The position numbers were made by a program, and so were the translations under genes. A stretch of DNA of 64,000 nucleotides, taken from the NCBI GenBank assembly GCA_964016885.1, contig OZ024740.1, positions 78,244,001-78,308,000 on the forward strand, given 5' to 3'. The DNA is from Eledone cirrhosa. Lineage: Eukaryota. Below the pieces are notes generated by a model. It did not search any database. It had not been told where the DNA came from and saw only the letters and a program-made list of their open reading frames with translations. Numbering within the stretch: position 1 is the stretch's first letter; each line of letters starts with the position of its first letter. Positions 21,756 through 63,287 of this stretch are shown piece after piece.

Positions 21756-22091
21756 TCATCATCGTTTCATTTTATGTCCACTTTTCCCTGCTTGCAAGGG
21801 TGGGACGAGAACTGATTCTGGCTTGATTTCTACAGCTGGATGCCCTTCCTAACACCAACCTCATTTACTGTGAGTGCTGGGTGCTTTTTTGCCGTGGCAC
21901 CTCCACGACCACTTTGCAGTGGAATGATAGGGACTCCAGTCCTTTCATCTCATTTCTACAGCTGAGTAAACTGGAGCAATGTGAAATAAAGTGTCTTGCT
22001 CAAGGAAACAACACATCACCCGGTCTGAGAATTGAACTCACAACCTTTTGATTGCAAGCCCAATGCTCTAACCACTAAGCCATGTGCCTCC
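21756..22091 (-). mobile_element. SINE family A, full length
   Basis: Reverse complement of 32498-32835, with a (GAT)n tail. Confidence 0.88.
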
Positions 22092-41338: not shown

Positions 41339-41443
41339 ATATTTTACTTTAGCAGTACAAATACTAAAATTGGAACAATGCAGAGAAGATTAGCATGGCC
41401 TCTACGCAAGGAGGATACACAAATTCATAAAGTGTTCCATATT
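41339..41443 (+). pseudogene. U6: U6 snRNA pseudogene
   Basis: ATACTAAAATTGGAACAATGCAGAGAAGATTAGCATGGCC..CGCAAGGA..CAAATTC..GTTCCATATT follows U6 end to end. ACAGAGA box mutated to GCAGAGA, CpG-type decay, no oligo-T terminator. Confidence 0.9.
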
Positions 41444-43121
41444 ACAAATTGTGGTGCCCTAGCATGGCTTCAGCCTGTCTGTCGGCTGGAACATGTAATA
41501 GAGAATAGGCTGCCTTTAAAATGGCTGGTTTCATTCCATAAAAACCAGAAGCAGTTTGAGGACGGGTGTATAAACAGATTTTATACATGTTGAATTGTTT
41601 TGCTAAATAAAAATATGTATAAGTATGTTGAGAACTACCATTTTTGTTCATGAGAAACTGATGTTTCATTATGATGAATAAAATAAGTTGCTACATTGCC
41701 ACAATCAGAAGATCATCATCATTGTTTAACGTCTATTTTCCACACTAGCATGGGTTAGATGAGTTGTCCCATTTGAGGCAAGTCAAGCCAGGTGACTGTC
41801 TTGCTCACACAGAACTATTTCTGGCTTGGTTTCTACAGATGGATGCCTTTTCTAACACCAACCACATTTACAGTGTGGGTTAGGTGCCTTTTATCGTGGC
41901 ACCAAAACGACCACTTTGCAGGGGGGGGGGGGTAAAGTGCAGGAGAAGGGTTGGGGTGATTAGGATGTGGGTGGCGTGTGGAAGGGGGAGTGAGGGTGTG
42001 GGTTAAGTGGTGCATACTATATGTATGCTTAAAGAAAATGTGTTGCAGTATTTAGTTACAGCCCTTTACATTCTTACTTCAAATCCTATAACGGTTGACT
42101 TAGCTTTTCATCCTTTCAGGGTCAGTAAAATACCATTCAGGAACTTGCATTCAGTTTTAACCCTTTTGATACCAAATTGCCTGAAATTGCTTTGGATTTA
42201 TGATGCAAAACTGTTCATATTAAAATATTTCTCCTTACATAAAAACTTTCCGTTATAATTTTATTTTGCAAGTTTTTTTGTTTTTTTTAGTAATGTTCTA
42301 AATATCAGCTTACTAATGAAAAACTTTTTGTATATATTTGTATATAAGCCAAGAAATTTGTGACAAAAAATTTGATGATAAAATGGAGGCAGCTTATATT
42401 CGAGGTCATTTACCAATTTTATATTTTACGTAAATGAAGTGCTAAAATATTTTCACTTTGGAGGTGGAACTTCTATTGTTTTTATGTTTTTAAATGAATA
42501 TAGCTTTCAAAATGTCAGAAATTGGTTAAAAAAACCCAAAAAAAAACATTGCATAATGGAACCATGAAACAAAAACTATACTCTAAATCAACCATGTCAA
42601 ACTGAGGGTCCTCCAAGGGTCACGTGTTGTTTGAGGGCCACACATGACAACTAATTGCCCACATTACAACTAATTTTTAATTTTATATTGCGAAGATAAA
42701 GCATGCTAGCGCTGTAAAAACATTTGTGCAAGCCGCAGGTGTGCTTGTAAAGGGTTCCGGGTCACATGTTTGACACTTAAAACATTTTAATTATCAAAAT
42801 ATTAAAACTTCATGAATATATTCTCCACTCAAAACTGTGTCATCTAAACATAATGTCTTTGGATTTTTAACCTATTTCTCAGATATTAAATAAGGGGTTG
42901 CCTTATATTTGAGTATATACAGTAATGGTATTATTAAATTACTCCTAATTTTTAGTTACTTTCAAAATTGATTGAAACACATGTATTTCATTAGAAATAT
43001 GGTAATGAAAGGATTAATCAACTATATACACTACCAAATGTCTGAAAACCCTTGTATCTGTGTTAGATATCAATGACTTTTTCTGACTCTTATCATAATG
43101 GAAATAAGAATATTGATAATA

Positions 43122-46648: not shown

Positions 46649-49600
46649 ACAGATAGTATTGGCAATGGAAAGACTAATAAAAACATAGTTTCTTTGGTCT
46701 GATCAGCAGATAGTATTGGCAATGGAAAGACTAATAAAAACATAGTTTCCTTGGTCTGATCAGCAGATAGTATCTGCAATGGAAAGACCAATAAAAATAT
46801 AGTTTCCTTGGTCTGATCAGCAGATAGTATCTGCAAGGGAAAGACCAATAAAAGCATAGTTTCTTTGGTCTGATCAGCAGATAGTATCTGCAATGGAAAG
46901 ACCAATAAAAGCATAGTTTCTTTGGTCTGATCAGCAGATAGTATCTGCAATGGAAAGACCAATAAAAACATAGTTTCCTTGGTCTGATCAGCAGATAGTA
47001 TCTGCAATGGAAAGACCAATAAAAAATATAGTTTTTTTGGTCTGATCAGCAGATAGTATCTGCAATGGAAAGACCAATAAAAGCATAGTTTCTTTGGTCT
47101 GATCAGCAGATAGTATCTGCAATGGAAAGACCAATAAAAACATAGTTTCCTTGGTCTGATCAGCAGATAGTATCTGCAATGGAAAGACCAATAAAAGCAT
47201 AGTTTCTTTGGTCTGATCAGCAGATAGTATCTGCAATGGAAAGACCAATAAAAGCATAGTTTCTTTGGTCTGATCAGCAGATAGTATCTGCAATGGAAAG
47301 ACCAATAAAAATATAGTTTCCTTGGTCTGATCAGCAGATAGTATCTGCAATGGAAAGACCAATAAAAGCATAGTTTCTTTGGTCTGATCAGCAGATAGTA
47401 TCTGCAATGGAAAGACCAATAAAAATATAGTTTCTTTGGTCTGATCAGCAGATAGTATCTGCAATGGAAAGACCAATAAAAGCATAGTTTCTTTGGTCTG
47501 ATCAGCAGATAGTATCTGCAATGGAAAGACCAATAAAAGCATAGTTTCTTTGGTCTGATCAGCAGATAGTATCTGCAATGGAAAGACCAATAAAAGCATA
47601 GTTTCTTTGGTCTGATCAGCAGATAGTATCTGCAATGGAAAGACCAATAAAAAATATAGTTTCTTTGGTCTGATCAGCAGATAGTATCTGCAATGGAAAG
47701 ACCAATAAAAAATATAGTTTCTTTGGTCTGATCAGCAGATAGTATCTGCAATGGAAAGACCAATAAAAATATAGTTTCTTTGGTCTGATCAGCAGATAGT
47801 ATCTGCAATGGAAAGACCAATAAAAGCATAGTTTCTTTGGTCTGATCAGCAGATAGTATCTGCAATGGAAAGACCAATAAAAGCATAGTTTCTTTGGTCT
47901 GATCAGCAGATAGTATCTGCAATGGAAAGACCAATAAAAGCATAGTTTCTTTGGTCTGATCAGCAGATAGTATCTGCAATGGAAAGACCAATAAAAGCAT
48001 AGTTTCTTTGGTCTGATCAGCAGATAGTATCTGCAATGGAAAGACCAATAAAAGCATAGTTTCTTTGGTCTGATCAGCAGATAGTATCTGCAATGGAAAG
48101 ACCAATAAAAGCATAGTTTCTTTGGTCTGATCAGCAGATAGTATCTGCAATGGAAAGACCAATAAAAATATAGTTTCTTTGGTCTGATCAGCAGATAGTA
48201 TCTGCAATGGAAAGACCAATAAAAGCATAGTTTCTTTGGTCTGATCAGCAGATAGTATCTGCAATGGAAAGACCAATAAAAGCATAGTTTCTTTGGTCTG
48301 ATCAGCAGATAGTATCTGCAATGGAAAGACCAATAAAAATATAGTTTCTTTGGTCTGATCAGCAGATAGTATCTGCAATGGAAAGACCAATAAAAGCATA
48401 GTTTCTTTGGTCTGATCAGCAGATAGTATCTGCAATGGAAAGACCAATAAAAATATAGTTTCTTTGGTCTGATCAGCAGATAGTATCTGCAATGGAAAGA
48501 CCAATAAAACCATAGTTTCTTTGGTCTGATCAGCAGATAGTATCTGCAATGGAAAGACCAATAAAAATATAGTTTCTTTGGTCTGATCAGCAGATAGTAT
48601 CTGCAATGGAAAGACCAATAAAAGCATAGTTTCTTTGGTCTGATCAGCAGATAGTATCTGCAATGGAAAGACAAATAAAAGCATAGTTTCTTTGGTCTGA
48701 TCAGCAGATAGTATCTGCAATGGAAAGACCAATAAAAAAAATAGTTTCTTTGGTCTGATCAGCAGATAGTATCTGCAATGGAAAGACCAATAAAAGCATA
48801 GTTTCTTTGGTCTGATCAGCAGATAGTATCTGCAATGGAAAGACCAATAAAAATATAGTTTCTTTGGTCTGATCAGCAGATAGTATCTGCAATGGAAAGA
48901 CCAATAAAAGCATAGTTTCTTTGGTCTGATCAGCAGATAGTATCTGCAATGGAAAGACCAATAAAAATATAGTTTCTTTGGTCTGATCAGCAGATAGTAT
49001 CTGCAATGGAAAGACCAATAAAAGCATAGTTTCTTTGGTCTGATCAGCAGATAGTATCTGCAATGGAAAGACCAATAAAAATATAGTTTCTTTGGTCTGA
49101 TCAGCAGATAGTATCTGCAATGGAAAGACCAATAAAAGCATAGTTTCTTTGGTCTGATCAGCAGATAGTATCTGCAATGGAAAGACCAATAAAAGCATAG
49201 TTTCCTTGGTCTGATCAGCAGATAGTATCTGCAATGGAAAGACCAATAAAAGCATAGTTTCTTTGGTCTGATCAGCAGATAGTATCTGCAATGGAAAGAC
49301 CAATAAAAGCATAGTTTCTTTGGTCTGATCAGCAGATAGTATCTGCAATGGAAAGACCAATAAAAATATAGTTTCTTTGGTCTGATCAGCAGATAGTATC
49401 TGCAATGGAAAGACCAATAAAAGCATAGTTTCTTTGGTCTGATCAGCAGATAGTATCTGCAATGGAAAGACCAATAAAAGCATAGTTTCTTTGGTCTGAT
49501 CAGCAGATAGTATCTGCAATGGAAAGACCAATAAAAATATAGTTTCTTTGGTCTGATCAGCAGATAGTATCTGCAATGGAAAGACCAATAAAAGCATAGT

Positions 49601-50864
49601 TTCTTTGGTCTGATCAGCAGATAGTATCTGCAATGGAAAGACCAATAAAAATATAGTTTCTTTGGTCTGATCAGCAGATAGTATCTGCAATGGAAAGACC
49701 AATAAAAGCATAGTTTCTTTGGTCTGATCAGCAGATAGTATCTGCAATGGAAAGACCAATAAAAGCATAGTTTCTTTGGTCTGATCAGCAGATAGTATCT
49801 GCAATGGAAAGACCAATAAAAGCATAGTTTCTTTGGTCTGATCAGCAGATAGTATCTGCAATGGAAAGACCAATAAAAGCATAGTTTCTTTGGTCTGATC
49901 AGCAGATAGTATCTGCAATGGAAAGACCAATAAAAGCATAGTTTCTTTGGTCTGATCAGCAGATAGTATCTGCAATGGAAAGACCAATAAAAGCATAGTT
50001 TCTTTGGTCTGATCAGCAGATAGTATCTGCAATGGAAAGACCAATAAAAATATAGTTTCTTTGGTCTGATCAGCAGATAGTATCTGCAATGGAAAGACCA
50101 ATAAAAGCATAGTTTCTTTGGTCTGATCAGCAGATAGTATCTGCAATGGAAAGACCAATAAAAATATAGTTTCTTTGGTCTGATCAGCAGATAGTATCTG
50201 CAATGGAAAGACCAATAAAAGCATAGTTTCTTTGGTCTGATCAGCAGATAGTATCTGCAATGGAAAGACCAATAAAAGCATAGTTTCTTTGGTCTGATCA
50301 GCAGATAGTATCTGCAATGGAAAGACCAATAAAAGCATAGTTTCTTTGGTCTGATCAGCAGATAGTATCTGCAATGGAAAGACCAATAAAAGCATAGTTT
50401 CTTTGGTCTGATCAGCAGATAGTATCTGCAATGGAAAGACCAATAAAAATATAGTTTCTTTGGTCTGATCAGCAGATAGTATCTGCAATGGAAAGACCAA
50501 TAAAAGCATAGTTTCTTTGGTCTGATCAGCAGATAGTATCTGCAATGGAAAGACCAATAAAAATATAGTTTCTTTGGTCTGATCAGCAGATAGTATCTGC
50601 AATGGAAAGACCAATAAAAGCATAGTTTCTTTGGTCTGATCAGCAGATAGTATCTGCAATAGAAAGACCAATAAAAGCATAGTTTCTTTGGTCTGATCAG
50701 CAGATAGTATCTGCAATGGAAAGACCAATAAAAGCATAGTTTCTTTGGTCTGATCAGCAGATAGTATCTGCAATGGAAAGACCAATAAAAGCATAGTTTC
50801 TTTGGTCTGATCAGCAGATAGTATCTGCAATGGAAAGACCAATAAAAGCATAGTTTCTTTGGTC
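46649..50864. repeat. 57-bp satellite, about 74 copies
   Basis: Unit GGTCTGATCAGCAGATAGTATCTGCAATGGAAAGACCAATAAAAGCATAGTTTCTTT. AAGCAT/AAATAT/AAACAT variants, a few 58-bp units, degenerate edges. Confidence 0.98.
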
Positions 50865-52080: not shown

Positions 52081-52590
52081 AATTGTTTCTGTTTTAGGCA
52101 CAAGGCCAGTAATCTGACGGGAAGGGAAAGTCAAATAAATTGACTCTTGTGCGTGACTGGTGGCAGTATCGGTAGAAGGTCGGACGCCATGCTTTCCAGC
52201 ATAATTACGTCCCTTTACGATCTGAGTTCAAATCCCGCCGAGGTTGACTTTGCCTTTCATCCTTACGGGGTCGATAAAATAAAGTACCAGTAATGCACTG
52301 GGTAATTGCTGGCCTTGTGCCTAAAGTAGAAACAATTATTTTATTAACCCCGGTAGATTGGCAGTATCGGTAGAGGGTCGGACACCATGCTTTCCAGCAT
52401 AGTTACGTCCCTTTACAGTCTGAGTTCAAATCCTGCTGAGGTTAACTTTGCCTTTCATCCTTACGGGTTCGATAAAATAAAGTACCAGTAATGCACTAGG
52501 TAATTGCTGGCCTTGTGCCTAAAGTAGAAACAATTATTTTATTAACCCCGTAAGGATGAAAAGCAAAGCTAACCTCGGCGGGATTTGAAA
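52081..52590. mobile_element. Nested SINE-B cluster: two + copies inside one - copy
   Basis: + copies at about 52161-52335 and 52352-52533. Host halves at 52081-52160 and 52534-52590. Confidence 0.75.
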
Positions 52591-53014
52591 TGTCTTAATA
52601 ATGAGAAGAGTAGTTATATTACTAAAACCCTCCATTTGATTGATTATTTTCAAAAATATTATAGGTAGTGCATTTCATTAGAATTATGGTAACGAGAGAT
52701 TCCCAATGTTGTGTTGAATACTAAATTGACCAAATTTCGAGTGAAATACTCTGCCTATGTGCTTCAATTAATTTTGAAAATAATCATTATTTTTGGAGAG
52801 AATTTACTAAAATAACTATTGTATATGTTGTTACTAAGCTAGTGATTGGAAAATAACTTCACAAAAAAGTAAAACTCAGAATTATAATGAAATGTTTTGA
52901 TTTCGACATGAACACTTTAATTCTTTTGATACCAAACTGCCCCTTGTTCTATAGTATAAAACTATTTTATGGTGTTCAAATTTATCAAAAACCTTCTATT
53001 ATAATTTTATATAA

Positions 53015-53201
53015 TTGTTTCTACTTTTGGCACAAGGCCAGCAATTTCCCAGTGCATTACTAGTGCTTTATTTCATCGACCCCGTAAGGATGAAAGGCAA
53101 AGTTAACCTCGGCGGGATTTGAACTCAGAATGGCAAGGGCCATAACTCTATACTGCAAAACATGGCGTCCGACCCTCTACCGATACTGCCAATTTACCGC
53201 C
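53015..53201 (-). mobile_element. SINE family B
   Basis: Family homology. TSD TTTTATATAAT. Confidence 0.85.
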
Positions 53202-53789
53202 CTTTTTATATAATAAGCTTTCAATTCTGTTCCAAACACGAGCCTAATAATGAAAAAAGTATATTACTAAATTCCTCCAATTCTTGAATATTTTCAAAAT
53301 TACCGTATATACTTGACCCCATTTACAATTGTTTTTGTTTTTTTTTATCACATACTTCTCAACTTATATACGAGTATACACAGTATCTTGTTAGTAAATT
53401 AAATATATATCATCATCTTACTTTCACTTTCCACATTGGCATATGTTAGATGGTTTCAGACCAAAACATTTGGATCGACCTGTCTTGTTCATATATTCCA
53501 TATTTGGCAAGGTTTCTATGACTGTGCTCTTCCTTATATTAACCTTCTTACATGGTGTACAGGGAGCATTGTTTTCATGGCACCAATGCTAACACTTCTT
53601 TGGGTGGACCAGGTGCATTTTATCGTGACACCAACACTATAGAGAGACGTTGTAGCATGCTCATCCAGAGAGAAGGGTTCTCTAAAACTCTATAGTTTCT
53701 GATCACCAAAATTGTAGCCTCCAGACATTCACTACATTTACATTTTGTATTGTAATATATTTGCTAGTCAGCTCAGTTCTGTGTCATCA

Positions 53790-55477: not shown

Positions 55478-55483
<6 letters not shown>

Positions 55484-57473
55484 GTAATAAAATATAGAGA
55501 AAAATACTGCAGGTAGCACATGGATAACATGTAATAAAATGAGTCCCTCATCAGTGATTTGCCGACGATCATCGATATTTCATTGCATTAAAAATCATAT
55601 ACCTCACGTCGGTGCAATAATAACCAAAATAAGTTATTAGGACAATTGAAACGCGTAAAGCGAGTGAGACAGGAGAACAACACAGAGTATAGCTAACCGT
55701 AGGGGAAAGAAACAAGCTTCAAAATTATTCTGTTTAGCATAAGCTAGGTGAATATATGAGCTTTTAGAAAACAGACCTGACACGAACTCTGGCCATGTGA
55801 GAAGAGAGAAAAATAGCCTTCGTGGTGTACAGGATGAAATGAAGAGAAGAGAAACAGTGAGTGAGTGAAAGTGTGAGGAAGAGTTAACTGACATGACAGA
55901 GGGGGAGAAACAGAGAGACTGGGGGGAACAGTAAGAGAGAGAGAGAAAAAAACAGAATCGCAGTGGTAAATATATGTAATAAAATATAGAGAAAAATACT
56001 GCAGGTAGCACATGGATAACATGTAATAAAATGAGTCCCTCATCAGTGATTTGCCGACGATCATCGATATTTCATTGCATTAAAAATCATATACCTCACG
56101 TCGGTGCAATAATAACCAAAATAAGTTATTAGGACAATTGAAACGCGTAAAGCGAGTGAGACAGGAGAACAACACAGAGTATAGCTAACCGTAGGGGAAA
56201 GAAACAAGCTTCAAAATTATTCTGTTTAGCATAAGCTAGGTGAATATATGAGCTTTTAGAAAACAGACCTGACACGAACTCTGGCCATGTGAGAAGAGAG
56301 AAAAATAGCCTTCGTGGTGTACAGGATGAAATGAAGAGAAGAGAAACAGTGAGTGAGTGAAAGTGTGAGGAAGAGTTAACTGACATGACAGAGGGGGAGA
56401 AACAGAGAGACTGGGGGGAACAGTAAGAGAGAGAGAGAAAAAAACAGAATCGCAGTGGTAAATATATGTAATAAAATATAGAGAAAAATACTGCAGGTAG
56501 CACATGGATAACATGTAATAAAATGAGTCCCTCATCAGTGATTTGCCGACGATCATCGATATTTCATTGCATTAAAAATCATATACCTCACGTCGGTGCA
56601 ATAATAACCAAAATAAGTTATTAGGACAATTGAAACGCGTAAAGCGAGTGAGACAGGAGAACAACACAGAGTATAGCTAACCGTAGGGGAAAGAAACAAG
56701 CTTCAAAATTATTCTGTTTAGCATAAGCTAGGTGAATATATGAGCTTTTAGAAAACAGACCTGACACGAACTCTGGCCATGTGAGAAGAGAGAAAAATAG
56801 CCTTCGTGGTGTACAGGATGAAATGAAGAGAAGAGAAACAGTGAGTGAGTGAAAGTGTGAGGAAGAGTTAACTGACATGACAGAGGGGGAGAAACAGAGA
56901 GACTGGGGGGAACAGTAAGAGAGAGAGAGAAAAAAACAGAATCGCAGTGGTAAATATATGTAATAAAATATAGAGAAAAATACTGCAGGTAGCACATGGA
57001 TAACATGTAATAAAATGAGTCCCTCATCAGTGATTTGCCGACGATCATCGATATTTCATTGCATTAAAAATCATATACCTCACGTCGGTGCAATAATAAC
57101 CAAAATAAGTTATTAGGACAATTGAAACGCGTAAAGCGAGTGAGACAGGAGAACAACACAGAGTATAGCTAACCGTAGGGGAAAGAAACAAGCTTCAAAA
57201 TTATTCTGTTTAGCATAAGCTAGGTGAATATATGAGCTTTTAGAAAACAGACCTGACACGAACTCTGGCCATGTGAGAAGAGAGAAAAATAGCCTTCGTG
57301 GTGTACAGGATGAAATGAAGAGAAGAGAAACAGTGAGTGAGTGAAAGTGTGAGGAAGAGTTAACTGACATGACAGAGGGGGAGAAACAGAGAGACTGGGG
57401 GAGCAGTAAGAGAGAGAGAGAAAAAAACACAGAATCGCAGTGGTAAATATATGTAATAAAATATAGAGAAAAA

Positions 57474-57477
<4 letters not shown>
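55478..57477 (-). repeat. Tandem array of 4 x 492-bp units plus ~30 bp, flanked by (TA)n
   Basis: Identical ORF-track entries at 492-bp spacing. The last unit is slightly divergent. A diverged inverted homolog lies at about 58640-58840. Confidence 0.95.
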
Positions 57478-57514
<37 letters not shown>

Positions 57515-58834
57515 AAAAGAGAGAGAAAGAACGGTCTCCCGCACAGTTTCGTCGGGAATCGAATTCAAAACCTCAAGATCGTGAACCGAACACCCTAACC
57601 ACTAAGCAACACACATATAGATTCAGATGTTAACTTTTTTTTATTCATTTTATATTGATGTACAAAATTACCATCAACACTTTCCTGAGTGTAGTTTCTC
57701 ACAGCATTCATATAACATCTTTGTTGTTACAATACTCAGACACACATACACACTCACACACACAATCACACATACACACACTCACACACATATTCACTCA
57801 CTAATAACACACACATGCAAACACATATATTCACACACATCCCACACTAAGAATCACACATATACATACACTAACAAAACACACACACACATATATATAT
57901 ATACATGTTCACATACTTACACGCACACACATATTCACACATACACACACACATATATATGCATACATATTCATGCACTTAGATACACATATTCCCATGC
58001 AGCTGTATATATAAGACTACAGTTATGTCGTGTCTTTTATGAACAAATTGAAGCACAGATAAATACCAAACCTGTTAACTTGTGACACGACGACGGCCAC
58101 CACCTCCACCATCTCCACCAGCACCACCACCAGCACCACCAGCACCACCACCACCAGCACCAGCACTACCAACACCACCACTAGCAGCAGCACCACCACC
58201 ACCACCTCCACCACCACCAGGACAATGACGACGACCACAACCACCACCACCACCAACAACAACAATTTGTACAGTTTTTCTCACAAGACATACATTTCTG
58301 CTATTGGCTTTGTTCTACTTGTTGTCATGTTTTTTTTGTCCACAATAATAAATCCCCCCCCCCCCCGCCGCTCCCCGCCATCCTCTCTCACCCATTAATT
58401 TAACGTTTTGTGAAAAAACTTCCTTTTACAGGAACCTATTAAAAGAAAAATGTTTTATGTATATGTATATATATATATTGTTATGCTTTTTGGCTTGTGT
58501 GGTTCTCTTCTTGCTCACATTTCACACACATCGACACGGTCTGTACCTCTCTCGCTCATGAAATCCACCCAGATTATGCTGACGGACAACCATGTTGCTT
58601 GTTTATTATCCTATCTTCGGTTTGCTTTTATCCTTCTATGTTGTTTACTTGTCCCCTTCGCTTTACGCGAATTACTGGTCCCAATAACATGTTTTAGTTA
58701 TTGCTCGCACCAACCTGAGGTATCTGATTTTTAATGCGATGAAATACCAATGATGGTTGGAAAATCACTGACGAAGGACTATTTTTATCATATGTAACCC
58801 ATGTGCAAACCACGCAGTATTCTTCTTTCTTCTC

Positions 58835-58939
<105 letters not shown>

Positions 58940-59218
58940 TTATTAAAATAACAGATTAAAGTTTAAGCAAAGAATCGCTGCTTTCAACGGGATCTTCTGA
59001 AACTAACAAAGTCAATCAGTAAACGCAGACCTGGATATTTCAAAAAACGTTGCAACCGGAGGAAGACAGGAAGACGATACTTTGGTTCGTGGAAACGTTC
59101 GCTGGCAAAGAACGGGAAAGAACGAATAATACGTCATTAATAGGAGCGGTGAAAAACAATTACGCGCAAAGACAGAACCACGTTTATGGTATAAAAGAGG
59201 TCATAGACTAATGTTCTC

Positions 59219-60784
59219 TTCAACCCCTCTATTCGGCTTATTAACCCTACGAAGTCCGATTTAGGTAGACTTAGTAAAACGATTCTTGATAGAATTATAC
59301 CTGAAATTAGAAGTTTGGCCCCTCTTGCACTGTGGAACAATTCTTTCGCGGTGATTGATTGGTTCAACGGCATATGTAACAAGGAACATTGCCGCTTTAT
59401 CCAATTCGACATCAACAATTACTACTCCTCCATCACTTTACCACTTCTCCTTAGAGCTATCAATTTCGCTAAAACACTCACAGTGGTTAAAGATTTCGAA
59501 GTTGATGTCATCCTCAATGCCCGAAAGTCGGTGATTAATTTCGACGACTCTATTTGGATTAAAAAATCCAATAGTACCCCATTCGACGTGAGTATGGGTG
59601 CCAGTGACTCTGCGGAGGTTACTGATCTTATTGGCCTTTTCCTTCTTTTCTCTATCAAGGACGAATCTCCCAACGCGGGCGGTGGTTTGTACCGTGACGA
59701 TGGTCTTTTGACCATGACTAAGTGCGGACCTCGTGCTTGCGACAGGCTCAGAAAAGAACTCACAGCCTTCTTTAAAGGCTTCAACCTCTCTATACAGGTT
59801 GAAGCCAATCTCTCGGTCGTTAATTACCTCGACGTTACCCTCAATTTATTGAATGGGTTGTATTATCCGTATAGAAAACCGAATGATACGCTTAATTACA
59901 TAAGTAAGCATTCCAACCATCCTGCCAGCATAACCAAGAACCTGGTAAGAAACGTTTCGTTGAGGCTTTCCCATCTTTCCACCAACGAGCATATTTTCAA
60001 CGACCATTCCACTTATTTCAATGAAGCTCTTGCTCGAAGTGGATTTGTCGATAAGGTAGCATATACAGAGTACGAAAATAGACCTAGAAGTAATAGATCC
60101 CGTCGCATTTGTTGGTATAACCCACCATATAATATGGAGGTGGCCACACCTTTAGCTAAGATCTTTCTTTCCCTTATTACGAAGCATTTTCTCCCTACAC
60201 ATAAATATAGTAAAATTTTTAATAGAAATACTATTAAAATTTCTTATTCTACGACTCCTAACCTTGCACATAACATCACAGCTTCAAATTTAGCTAAACT
60301 ACCTAGCCGTAGGAACACGTGCAACCCAGTAGTTAGTACTAACTGTAATTGTAGGAATCGGGCTGATTGGCCCCTATCCGGGAAATGCCTCTCTAGTAAC
60401 ATTGTCTACAAATGTAAGGTTGTAACACCCACGTCCCGTAGGGCCTACATAGGGTTAACCGCCAATAGTTTCAAGCAGCGTCTTTACATGCATACCCATT
60501 CTTTTCGTTACCCTCTAAGAAGGAATATGACGTCACTTTCAGCTTATATCTGGAGTCTAAAAGACAACCACACCCAATATAAGTTACACTGGGAGATCCT
60601 AGCTAGGGCTAGATCGTATAACGGAAATAAAAGACCATGTGACCTCTGTGCCGCTGAGACCCGGGAAATACTCTACGCCACAGACCACATCTTAAACAAA
60701 AAATCTGAGGCAATTTCGGCTTGTAAACATAAATTGCACAAAACTTTCCTGTATTACAGCCCCACGTTATACCCTAACGGATAG
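59219..60784 (+). CDS. PLE reverse transcriptase / GIY-YIG endonuclease ORF (N-terminally truncated, no ATG)
   Basis: Motifs RLINPTKSDLGRLSK, FIQFDINNYYSSI, MGASDSAEV, LYRDDGL, NYLDVTL, YRKP, SNHP, WYNPPY, CNCR, IVYKC..YIGLT..FKQR, CDLC..E, LNKKSE. The frame stays open back to the pLTR junction. Confidence 0.92.
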   Translation, partial: FNPSIRLINPTKSDLGRLSKTILDRIIPEIRSLAPLALWNNSFAVIDWFNGICNKEHCRFIQFDINNYYSSITLPLLLRAINFAKTLTVVKDFEVDVILNARKSVINFDDSIWIKKSNSTPFDVSMGASDSAEVTDLIGLFLLFSIKDESPNAGGGLYRDDGLLTMTKCGPRACDRLRKELTAFFKGFNLSIQVEANLSVVNYLDVTLNLLNGLYYPYRKPNDTLNYISKHSNHPASITKNLVRNVSLRLSHLSTNEHIFNDHSTYFNEALARSGFVDKVAYTEYENRPRSNRSRRICWYNPPYNMEVATPLAKIFLSLITKHFLPTHKYSKIFNRNTIKISYSTTPNLAHNITASNLAKLPSRRNTCNPVVSTNCNCRNRADWPLSGKCLSSNIVYKCKVVTPTSRRAYIGLTANSFKQRLYMHTHSFRYPLRRNMTSLSAYIWSLKDNHTQYKLHWEILARARSYNGNKRPCDLCAAETREILYATDHILNKKSEAISACKHKLHKTFLYYSPTLYPNG

Positions 60785-61711
60785 TACGATCTATACGTGG
60801 ATATTTTACGTCTTGATGTGGGAGCTAAGTATATGTTTTGTTTATTCCTTTACTTATTTGCATAGGTAAGTATATATTACCCGTATGTTTTGTGAAGGTA
60901 CATATACCTTCTCGTACGTATATTTGATTGTTATGGCGTATAATTTTATATATTCCGGTACATATGGTTTGGCTATGTGTATACGGGAGTTTTGCGTCTG
61001 TGTGAGTATGCAGGTTCGTACGTATTGTGGGTGTGTGTATATGCGTACTTCATGTTTTAGTTGACTTACGTCTCCGAACATTCGTGTATTTATATGTGGG
61101 TATGTGTGTGCGCTTGTTATATACGTATTTATTTATTTATATACGTTTATATAATTATTTATTTATTTGTATACACGCATACACACACACACATATTTAT
61201 ATGGGCGTGGTTTTGTATACCTATGGTAAGTTTTTGCGTATGCTTGTGTATGTACGTATTTGTTTACGTGTATGTATTTATTTATTTCTATTACTTCTGT
61301 ATTGTATTTATTTACTTTGTTCTTAACTCTGTAGCGGAGATTCATTTGGTCTCCTAGTTAGAATTTTAGTCTACGACTTCTGCTATGCCATTTACGTGGT
61401 TGTGTCTTTGCGTGCTATTGTTCTCCACGCTCCACATATGACGTATTATCTTCGTTTTTTCGTTCATTGCCAGAGAACGTCTCTATGCACCACCTAAGAG
61501 AACATTAGTCTATGACCTCTTTTATACCATAAACGTGGTTCTGTCTTTGCGCGTAATTGTTTTTCACCGCTCCTATTTATGACGTATTATTCGTTCTTTC
61601 CCATTCTTTGCCAGCGAACGTTTCCACGAACCAAAGTATCGTCTTCCTGTCTTCCTCCGGTTGCAACGTTTTTTGAAATATCCAGCTCTGCGTTTACAGA
61701 TTGACTTTGTT

Positions 61712-61762
61712 AGTTTCAGAAGATCCCGTTAAGGGTGAAAGCAGCGATTCTTTGCTTAAACT
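61712..61762 (+). ncRNA. Hammerhead-ribozyme-like motif in the PLE pLTR (variant core CAGAAGA)
   Basis: Stem I AGTTT/AAACT, stem II CCC-GTTAA-GGG, GAAA, stem III AGCAG/TTGCT, predicted cleavage after 61757. Hammerheads in PLE pLTRs are established. Confidence 0.65.
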
Positions 61763-61869
61763 TTAATCTGTTATTTTAATAAGTATTTGCTCTATGGTAC
61801 TTATATATTTGATATATATTTATCCTTATCGAGCCCTCTTTGGATTTTAGTCTTCAAATTTATTATTAT

Positions 61870-61937
<68 letters not shown>

Positions 61938-62754: not shown

Positions 62755-63098
62755 CTCGATTCTACGAAGTAGATTTTCCTATAGTCCTTTAATATCAAAT
62801 TTCTTTGTTAGTTGATTTAAATCCTGTTGTTGTCATTCCATGAGTGGTCAAGAAATTGTACACGCCACCGGTATTTCTAGCCACTCATGGTTGCCCACTT
62901 CTTGCTTCCTCTCGTGCTCCACCTATCAATCAAAATTTCTTCATGTATCAGAATTACTACTGTGGTGGGAAAGGGGCTGTAATCTTGAACGGCTGGCATC
63001 ACTTCGACGTCCTCAATGCCCCTAGGCGCCTTAGTCTACATCGGTCAGGTACACACCCGCAATTATGCTGTATGCGGCATTCATCATAAATAAATAAT

Positions 63099-63287
63099 TG
63101 TTTCTACTTTTTGGCACAAGGCCAGCAATTACCCAGTGCATTACTGGTACTTTATTTTATCGACCCCGTAAGGATGAAAGGCAAAGTTAACCTCGGCGGG
63201 ATTCGAACTCAGAATAGCAAGGACCGTAACTCTGTGCGTCAAAGCATAGCGTCCGACCCTCTACCGATACTGCCAATCCACCGCCCA
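63099..63287 (-). mobile_element. SINE family B
   Basis: Family homology. TSD TCATCATAAATAAATAAT (63081-63098 / 63288-63305). Confidence 0.88.

What the first reader, a model, noticed from the sequence alone, without database searches (positions are those of the whole stretch)
55478..57477. 492-bp tandem array as a candidate retrozyme (circular-RNA-derived) insertion
Seen: four near-identical non-coding units plus ~30 bp terminal redundancy inside (TA)n. Each minus-strand unit has CCGAC-GTGAGGT-..-GAAA-..-TC-GTCGG (55562-55612) followed by a second CTGATGAGGGAC. The diverged homolog at 58710-58760 reads CCAAC-CTGAGGT-ATC..GAT-GAAA-..-GTTGG, a compensatory G-C to A-T change in the putative stem I. 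Established: metazoan non-LTR retrozymes are tandem hammerhead-bearing units yielding circular RNAs, probably mobilised by PLEs. Inference: rolling-circle reverse transcription product. Both cores deviate from consensus.
Basis: partly seen in the sequence, partly recalled or inferred. Interest (0 to 1): 0.7.

Follow-up and report, generated by a model that had tools for sequence, protein, structure and literature searches.

The report
Scrambled hammerhead in tandem jumping repeat
This array is one insertion of a young, protein-free jumping repeat with thousands of copies, and each unit carries every catalytic letter of a hammerhead self-cutting RNA in a scrambled, kinked layout that is predicted to cut and is likely the ribozyme reported missing from Naiad jumping genes.

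Summary
The array is real: four 492-493-bp units plus a 31-bp 5'-truncated fifth, between (TA)n tracts. It is one insertion of a dispersed non-coding superfamily (8,886 exact hits of an 18-mer) with Penelope-like hallmarks: fixed 3' end in (TA)n, 5' truncation, partial tandems, inverted arms with a shorter tail. Across subfamilies 18 of 22 pairs change on both sides. Read by eye, published octopus Naiad 3' ends have the same fold. Predicted cut: 55598|55597, then every 492 nt. Cutting and circles are untested. Three of the four units share a private variant, so the copy number here is not evidence for rolling circle. No intact helper was found. The scan had noted this fold before on other DNA of this and other genomes; I reached it before looking that up.

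The parts
55478..57477 (-). Whole insertion of family A: four full units plus a 31-nt 5'-truncated fifth; element 3' end at 55478, 5' end at 57477, (TA)n on both sides
55478..56953 (-). Three identical 492-bp units sharing a private variant (2-nt deletion, substitution, 1-nt insertion); probably amplified locally from one unit
56954..57446 (-). 493-bp unit with no substitution against the family A majority
57447..57477 (-).
55591..55603 (-). Block S: stem III 3' strand 55603-55600, U16.1 55599, H17 = A 55598, stem I strand 55597-55591. Predicted cut between 55598 and 55597; H17 also at 56090, 56582, 57074
55574..55582 (-). Block G: 11.1 (55582), GAAA (55581-55578), stem III 5' strand (55577-55574)
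55547..55561 (-). Block C: stem I strand (55561-55555), CUGAUGA (55554-55548), 10.1 (55547)
55562..55612 (-).
   Evidence: rules from PMC8191799
55583..55617 (-). Helix Pb: 55617-55613 pairs with 55587-55583, the strand just before 11.1-GAAA; 3-nt UAA linker 55590-55588
55543..55643 (-). Outer helices of the junction beyond the one-pair stem II: Pa (GUCC upstream with GGAC after 10.1) and hairpin P2 (absent in family E)
55478..55546 (-). 3' tail: small ACAUG/CAUGU hairpin and two U-rich/AUAU end sites, ending in (TA)n 120 nt after the predicted cut
58487..58840 (+). 5'-truncated copy of sister family B (unit about 527 bp); same fold at 58705-58775, H17 = C at 58724; 5' limit approximate

Best explanation
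The array is one insertion of a non-coding repeat family, likely pasted into (TA)n by a Penelope-like enzyme, and each unit holds a complete hammerhead core in S-G-C order, with a predicted k-turn in stem III, that is predicted to cut its own RNA. Mechanism: read-through or tandem transcripts fold the ribozyme (inferred). The k-turn bends the stem III extension back so that it can reach the far ends of stem I and helix Pb, which the permuted order needs (inferred geometry). Cutting after AUA at 55598 and every 492 nt would release unit-length RNA that may re-ligate into a circle (untested). A Penelope-like RT/GIY-YIG enzyme nicks (TA)n, starts about 120 nt downstream of the cut site and copies across it, leaving a fixed 3' end and 5'-truncated partial tandems (pattern shown, enzyme inferred). 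The fold was probably inherited from Naiad 3' ends (read by eye). My odds: mobile non-autonomous PLE-type family 0.95; fold kept by selection 0.9; it cleaves 0.75; Naiad origin 0.7; circular template 0.5; present helper enzyme unknown.
For: Family: 8,886 exact 18-mer hits, control 0; 2,532 candidates for the unit, the 40 scored at 95-100% identity. In 82 position-sampled insertions 77 end in (TA)n at the 3' side and 57 at the 5' side. Short 3' ends are enriched in inverted arms: family F 7 of 17 versus 1 of 16, families A-C 4 of 10 versus 4 of 151, matching the PLE tail and inversion described in PMC8557442 section 6. Ribozyme: a six-order descriptor finds 5 hits in the window, all SGC (four units and homolog B); a 5-Mb Markov control gives no SGC hit (one GCS hit), and 0 of 4,000 unit-composition controls hit. 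In 214 frames picked by invariant letters only, all pairs of stems I, III, NC and 10.1-11.1 are 95-99.5% paired; H17 is A 161, C 49, U 3, G 1; 10.1-11.1 is G.U 97, A-U 78, U-A 25, G-C 4, other 10. Ungapped cross-family alignment A2 (22 rows): 93.8% of 484 cells paired, 18 of 22 pairs change on both sides, slid controls 26-47%. Core intact in 133 of 149 copies (the C block was part of the search pattern for many of these). The 3-nt S-to-G linker matches type SGC (PMC10085705). K-turn: 3b:3n is Watson-Crick in 6 of 214 and L3 is U in 207 of 214, in line with PMC8191799. Naiad_Ovul is flagged HHR_half_core and (TA)n-targeting, and its 3' end and that of Naiad_Obim read by eye as the same architecture; old family E here shares their stem III letters.
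Against: No cleavage, circle or expression was shown. Stem II is one base pair opening into a 3- or 4-way junction, unlike the continuous stem II of tested SGC ribozymes; in Naiad_Ovul and Naiad_Obim the 10.1 and 11.1 positions read U and C and cannot pair. The fifth Pb pair holds in only 142 of 214 frames, and Pb is 84% paired in A2. Pair-type counts do not exceed the shuffles, and the subfamilies are related, so the changes are fewer events than cells. The isolated hairpin is not unusually stable (z -0.2 for A, -1.5 for B). No helper was found: all 55 Naiad protein matches are broken, longest open frame 236 aa, and none of 28 remnant regions keeps the fold as its own 3' end, yet family A is 95-100% identical. 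5' ends show no pile-up at the cut (3 of 82 within 6 nt, about 2 expected). In Poseidon, hammerhead cutting was not needed for insertion in vitro (PMC11167929).
Confidence: 0.7

Rival explanations
1. Same element and active ribozyme, but no circle: the template is an uncleaved or partly cleaved linear tandem RNA, copied from an internal start site, and cutting only trims transcripts.
For: Poseidon RT starts internally on uncleaved tandem RNA, and ribozyme mutants insert normally in vitro (PMC11167929, passages). Partial tandems are a general PLE feature (PMC8557442 section 6). 66 of 82 insertions cross fewer than two cut sites. This array's extra units look locally amplified.
Against: Insertion lengths fall off smoothly with no step at unit boundaries, up to 2.1 units beyond the first cut. 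Units at one locus share derived changes far more often than units at different loci (9 in 7,582 columns versus 9 in 330,524; 3 of the 9 come from this array), as a single monomer template would give. A linear-only cycle should shorten with each round of 5' truncation (inference).
Confidence: 0.35
2. The fold is a hammerhead-derived, non-catalytic handle: a k-turn plus pseudoknots that binds a protein (RT or an L7Ae-family protein) and sets where copying starts.
For: Stem II is one pair and branches. 70 of 82 insertions read through the site. K-turns are known L7Ae-family binding sites (PMC8191799).
Against: All catalytic letters are kept across subfamilies whose stems are rewritten, and H17 avoids G (1 of 214) while N7 varies freely (U 149, C 52, G 11, A 2), the pattern expected from selection for cleavage.
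Confidence: 0.15
3. One reading: a degenerate type I hammerhead at 55562-55612 plus a second partial core, in a classical non-LTR retrozyme.
For: The outer helix and GAAA exist and covary.
Against: Its C3 pairs with its H17 in 139 of 149 copies, its A9 is never A, and its H17 is G in 100 of 149. No CGS (type I) hit at the unit; no Rfam hammerhead match.
Confidence: 0.02
4. Assembly artefact or locus-specific duplication.
For: Three units are identical and share a private variant in repeat-prone sequence that is absent from the other 24 family A loci aligned, so part of the copy number is probably local (about 0.6 for that narrower claim).
Against: The family is genome-wide and deeply covered in three public runs of one sample. 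Loose contig ends matching the private variant occur in those runs, weak support that the variant is real.
Confidence: 0.03

Closest known systems
Type-SGC hammerhead ribozymes (HRIMA-1 and variants; Eckert et al. 2023, PMC10085705; read parts 1, 3, 4, 5 of 8 and passages)
   Same: Block order S-G-C, full core, stems I and III as pseudoknots, about 3-nt linker from stem I to the stem II side.
   Different: [quoted passage not shown] Here stem II is one pair opening into a junction (Pa, P2, Pb), the stem I-II interaction helix is replaced, stem III carries a k-turn, and the host is a high-copy animal retroelement.
Metazoan non-LTR retrozymes (Cervera and de la Pena 2020, PMC7229834, passages; Li et al. 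2026, 10.64898/2026.07.22.740005, parts 1-2 of 5 and passages)
   Same: Non-coding, low-GC tandem units of a few hundred bp, one hammerhead per unit, dispersed, linked to PLEs.
   Different: Defined by a type I hammerhead and found with type I descriptors; this unit has none. Circles were shown for those families and are untested here.
Naiad Penelope-like elements (Craig et al. 2021, PMC8557442; sections 6 and 11, passages, supplement searches and part 24 of 59)
   Same: (TA)n targets, 5' truncation, partial tandems, inverted arms, tail. Naiad_Ovul is flagged HHR_half_core, and its 3' end and that of Naiad_Obim read by eye as the same fold.
   Different: This element has no RT/EN ORF. Naiads found in this genome are old fragments; stem letters differ from family A and are closest to old family E.
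Non-autonomous Chlamys elements such as MRC1 (PMC8557442, passage)
   Same: [quoted passage not shown]
   Different: Green algal; no permuted hammerhead reported in the passages read.

Membership tests
Non-LTR retrozyme | Tandem non-coding units of a few hundred bp, low GC, dispersed in the genome | tested here: met
   Units of 492-655 bp; GC 0.37 in 56001-58000; 8,886 hits; only low-complexity stop-to-stop frames of 111-144 aa (these were not searched against protein families).
Non-LTR retrozyme | Type I (CGS) hammerhead in every unit | tested here: not met
Non-LTR retrozyme | Self-cleavage and unit-length circular RNA | not testable with these tools
   Needs a bench assay or raw RNA reads.
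Non-LTR retrozyme | Target-site duplication larger than 4 bp, when present | tested here: inconclusive
   Both flanks are (TA)n in most copies, so a duplication cannot be told.
Type-SGC hammerhead | Blocks in order S, G, C with all core letters and H17 not G | tested here: met
   (133 of 149 intact).
Type-SGC hammerhead | Stems I and III with covariation | tested here: met
   Stem I 5 of 6 and stem III 4 of 5 pairs change on both sides.
Type-SGC hammerhead | Continuous stem II | tested here: inconclusive
   Only the 10.1-11.1 pair (204 of 214 paired, four pair types); beyond it the strands pair with upstream sequence (Pa, Pb).
Type-SGC hammerhead | HRIMA-1-type helix joining the far sides of stems I and II | tested here: not met
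   The strand 5' of stem I is the k-turn NC helix, and the strand after CUGAnGA pairs upstream. So it works like SGC but is not an HRIMA-1 member.
Type-SGC hammerhead | Cleavage at the predicted site | not testable with these tools
   Bench assay needed.
Standard k-turn | 3-nt bulge followed by tandem G:A and A:G between C and NC helices | tested here: met
   G2n 148, A1n 148, G1b 145, A2b 147 of 149 copies anchored on other columns; definition from PMC8191799.
Standard k-turn | 3b:3n not Watson-Crick and -1b:-1n favourable for folding | tested here: met
   3b:3n is Watson-Crick in 6 of 214; -1b:-1n is C:G in 195 and U:A in 12 of 214.
Standard k-turn | Kinked conformation in ions or with protein | not testable with these tools
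   Needs FRET, probing or a structure.
Non-autonomous PLE (Naiad-derived) | (TA)n target, 5' truncation, partial tandems, inverted arm, tail | tested here: met
Non-autonomous PLE (Naiad-derived) | 3' end shared with an autonomous Naiad | tested here: inconclusive
   Same architecture by eye in published Naiad_Ovul and Naiad_Obim, not computed; not found attached to any of 28 Naiad remnant regions in this genome.
Non-autonomous PLE (Naiad-derived) | Intact Naiad helper in the same genome | tested here: not met
   55 matches of 84 candidates, all broken; a distant Naiad lineage could have been missed.

The most novel reading that the evidence does not exclude
A class of animal retrozymes built on non-circularly permuted, k-turn-braced hammerheads: Naiad retrotransposons are not ribozyme-less but carry SGC (cephalopod, spider) or CSG (nematode) hammerheads that standard descriptors cannot see, and their non-coding offspring outlived them and now spread as RNA circles on another Penelope-like enzyme.
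Probability: 0.4. Interest if true: 0.85.

Novelty: new variant of a known kind. Interest (0 to 1): 0.7.

Why it matters
Non-circularly permuted hammerheads were reported from environmental sequence and one bacterial candidate (PMC10085705). I found no paper placing them in an animal genome or in Penelope-like elements (searches; the library lacks most subscription journals). If this one cuts, Naiads do carry a ribozyme, which bears on the argument that PLEs do without one (PMC8557442), and retrozyme surveys built on type I descriptors undercount. The k-turn offers a concrete answer to the geometric puzzle Eckert et al. raised about joining distal stem III to the stem I/II end. A 130-nt transcript tests it in a day.

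Tried and rejected
SECIS reading of the hairpin: rejected by inspection, because the bulge is on the 3' strand and the AA spacing does not fit (SECIS consensus recalled). Type II (GSC) reading with upstream GUCC as stem II: rejected, because AAUA follows it instead of GAAA. Neighbouring Hydra-like PLE (59207-60784) as parent: by eye its 3' region has no CUGAnGA core and no homology to the unit; it stays a possible helper, untested. GIY-YIG search: 150 of 10,597 candidates scored; 30 loci translated and 20 fetched wider were mostly C-terminal-EN, Neptune-type, several with CGS hammerheads; SGC hits in L204, L205 and L214 were short-family copies, not their UTRs; one loose SGC-order hit in L176 was not followed. 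Only 2 of 196 oriented loci with the fold had an RT/EN-like ORF within 3 kb upstream, neither Naiad-like. Naiad RT motif patterns gave 0 hits; a DKA pattern gave 8 remnants. A protein search with a remnant gave 1 hit among 141 candidates, not used. RNA: no RNA holder listed. The three runs laid are contigs of unknown kind from one sample; they skipped 55850-55959 and cannot show ends, level or array copy number. A double-sided covariation pattern over the whole genome could not be run; related families were reached by DNA searches instead. Rows dropped: 14 of 188 segments unassigned; duplicate loci and 1 edge case of 83; duplicate loci. Supplements of the bioRxiv preprint were not seen and may list further retrozyme types; Eckert's supplements were not read.

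Full report
Observation. The array is real: period 492, 4.1 copies, 99% matches at 55478-57477, with (TA)n on both sides. Three units are identical; the fourth differs by one substitution and two small indels; a 31-nt piece of a fifth follows. The window lies in a 3.0-Gb animal genome, probably an octopus (inferred from likeness to published octopus Naiads, not tested).

It is one insertion of a large family. The unit gave 2,532 candidates, the 40 scored at 95-100% identity. An 18-mer shared with the homolog near 58700 has 8,886 exact hits against 0 for the control. On the minus strand copies share one 3' end and start at many places, so the 'terminal redundancy' is a 5'-truncated unit. In 82 insertions taken by position (the first 100 pattern hits, chromosome C1), 77 end in (TA)n and 57 also start in it; unit lengths over all loci run from 492 to 655. 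Some copies carry an inverted arm with a shorter 3' end: family F 7 of 17 inverted versus 1 of 16 plain, families A-C 4 of 10 versus 4 of 151 (also visible in family D). These are the Penelope-like features listed in PMC8557442 section 6.

Folding pairs its 'C3' with its 'H17'. In 149 copies these two pair in 139 (C-G 83, G-C 43, U-G 13), its A9 is U in 147, and its H17 is G in 100. Rfam finds no hammerhead here.

Minus strand, unit 1: block S is stem III strand 55603-55600, U16.1 55599, H17 A 55598, stem I strand 55597-55591; after a UAA linker and the Pb strand comes block G (11.1 at 55582, GAAA 55581-55578, stem III strand 55577-55574); after a k-turn and its NC helix comes block C (stem I strand 55561-55555, CUGAUGA 55554-55548, 10.1 at 55547). 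Order S-G-C is the type SGC non-circular permutation of Eckert et al. (PMC10085705). A descriptor allowing all six orders finds five hits in the window, all SGC: the four units and homolog B. It finds no SGC hit in 5 Mb of Markov control (one GCS hit) and none in 4,000 unit-composition controls.

Covariation. Following relatives gave families B (1,776 candidates), D, E (965 candidates, copies about 80% alike) and F (1,992 candidates); candidate sets can overlap. Among close relatives 95.8% of 1,120 cells pair and 6 pairs change on both sides; stem I was fixed there by my search pattern. Seven subfamily majorities keep 145 of 147 stem pairs. In 214 frames chosen only by invariant letters, with no pairing required, each pair of stems I, III, NC and 10.1-11.1 is 95-99.5% paired; four Pb pairs are 93-98% paired and the fifth only 142 of 214. 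H17 is A 161, C 49, U 3, G 1, and N7 varies. The 10.1-11.1 pair is G.U 97, A-U 78, U-A 25, G-C 4, other 10. The ungapped 22-row cross-family alignment is 93.8% paired, 18 of 22 pairs change on both sides, and slid controls give 26-47%. Limits: rows are related, eight are family E, and the pair-type measures do not exceed the shuffles.

What differs from tested SGC ribozymes. Stem II is one pair; beyond it the strands pair with upstream sequence (Pa and Pb), with hairpin P2 between them except in family E. Stem III continues into a standard k-turn: 3-nt bulge, tandem G:A pairs, L3 U in 207 of 214, 3b:3n Watson-Crick in only 6 of 214, -1b:-1n C:G in 195, which fits the folding rules in PMC8191799 (part 1 of 5). 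I infer that the kink turns stem III back towards the far ends of stem I and Pb, a distance Eckert et al. flagged as hard to bridge. Some earlier notes call the core 'split'; in this genome the covarying 10.1-11.1 pair argues that it is closed by one pair, although in the two published octopus Naiads those positions cannot pair.

Origin and helper. Craig et al. report that Naiads lack canonical hammerheads, prefer (TA)n and are remnants in cephalopods; their supplement flags Naiad_Ovul and Naiad_Esco as HHR_half_core. By eye, the 3' ends of Naiad_Ovul and Naiad_Obim show the same Pa, P2, Pb, k-turn, stem III, stem I and core, and a 15-nt motif from them led to family E here. This was not computed. 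In this genome all 55 Naiad matches are broken, the eight first found are mostly about 65-85% alike in aligned stretches, and none of 28 regions keeps the fold as its own 3' end. Family A is very young, so its helper is an undetected Naiad or another PLE. The adjacent element (59207-60784) has a Hydra-type linker, is young (96-98%), ends in (TA)n and has two 3' ends, but by eye shares no core with the unit.

Circle or not. The predicted cut lies 120 nt upstream of the 3' end. 70 of 82 insertions run across it, 16 across two cuts, 1 across three; 3 start within 6 nt of a cut, about 2 expected from local density. So the template is not a cut linear monomer. A re-ligated circle fits, and so does an uncleaved tandem RNA with an internal start as shown for Poseidon (PMC11167929). 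Units at one locus share derived changes much more than units at different loci (9 in 7,582 columns versus 9 in 330,524), which favours one template per insertion but also fits later homogenisation. For this array, the 5'-most full unit equals the family majority while the other three share a private variant absent from 24 other loci. One circle would give identical units, so about two units were probably inserted and one was then amplified, or the assembly expanded it. Loose contig ends matching the variant exist in public runs of one sample; copy number could not be checked.

Earlier notes. The scan reached the SGC/Naiad reading many times on other DNA of this genome and in other genomes; my notes had it, before the look-up. 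No look-alike was indexed for this unit. A HERO lead from other genomes was not tested.

Verdict. A real, abundant non-autonomous Penelope-like repeat that works like a non-LTR retrozyme but fails its type I criterion. It carries a new variant of the SGC hammerhead. The fold is well supported; cutting, circles and the helper are open. Interest 0.7.

Noticed in passing
PMC8557442 supplement, Naiad consensus 3' ends: By eye, nematode Naiads (Naiad-2_Nbra, Naiad-3_Nbra, Hcon, Hpol, Asuum) end in clean type-CSG permuted hammerheads, and spider Naiad_Ptep reads as SGC without a clear stem II. The bivalve Naiad ends shown gave me no such core. Not computed.
   Followed up: partly
window 58945-61872 (+), ORF 59207-60784: 5'-truncated Hydra-like PLE (RT, CxCx5 linker, C-terminal GIY-YIG; no Pfam hit) with an inverted copy of its own 3' end at the 5' side; young family (2,236 candidates, 96-98%) with two 3' ends in (TA)n; no CUGAnGA core seen in its 3' region although Hydra elements are reported to have one.
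   Followed up: partly
window 16933 (+), 62435 (-) / 62504 (+), 11032 (-) / 11136 (+): CUGAnGA...GAAA motifs in canonical order that look like minimal type I hammerheads with palindromic stem III, two of them in inverted pairs; other PLE-end families.
   Followed up: no
window 46650-50864: 57-bp satellite, 73.9 copies, 97% matches.
   Followed up: no
window 41344-41446 (+) and 22025-22082 (-): U6 snRNA-like copy with mismatches (82.9 bits) and a partial tRNA-like match.
   Followed up: no
window 52161-52589, 53011-53202, 63095-63286: Several copies of a SINE-like repeat, one as a 198-bp tandem.
   Followed up: no
L225-L232 and L286-L335: Decayed Naiad remnants with the DKA motif in this genome, 55 matches, none intact.
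   Followed up: yes
L197 1275-4562, L198, L199: Long open frames (844-1,096 aa stop to stop) of C-terminal-EN Neptune-type PLEs, possible active helpers.
   Followed up: no
L044, L248, L275, L359: Further minor subfamilies of the SGC element with other stem letters, not searched further.
   Followed up: no
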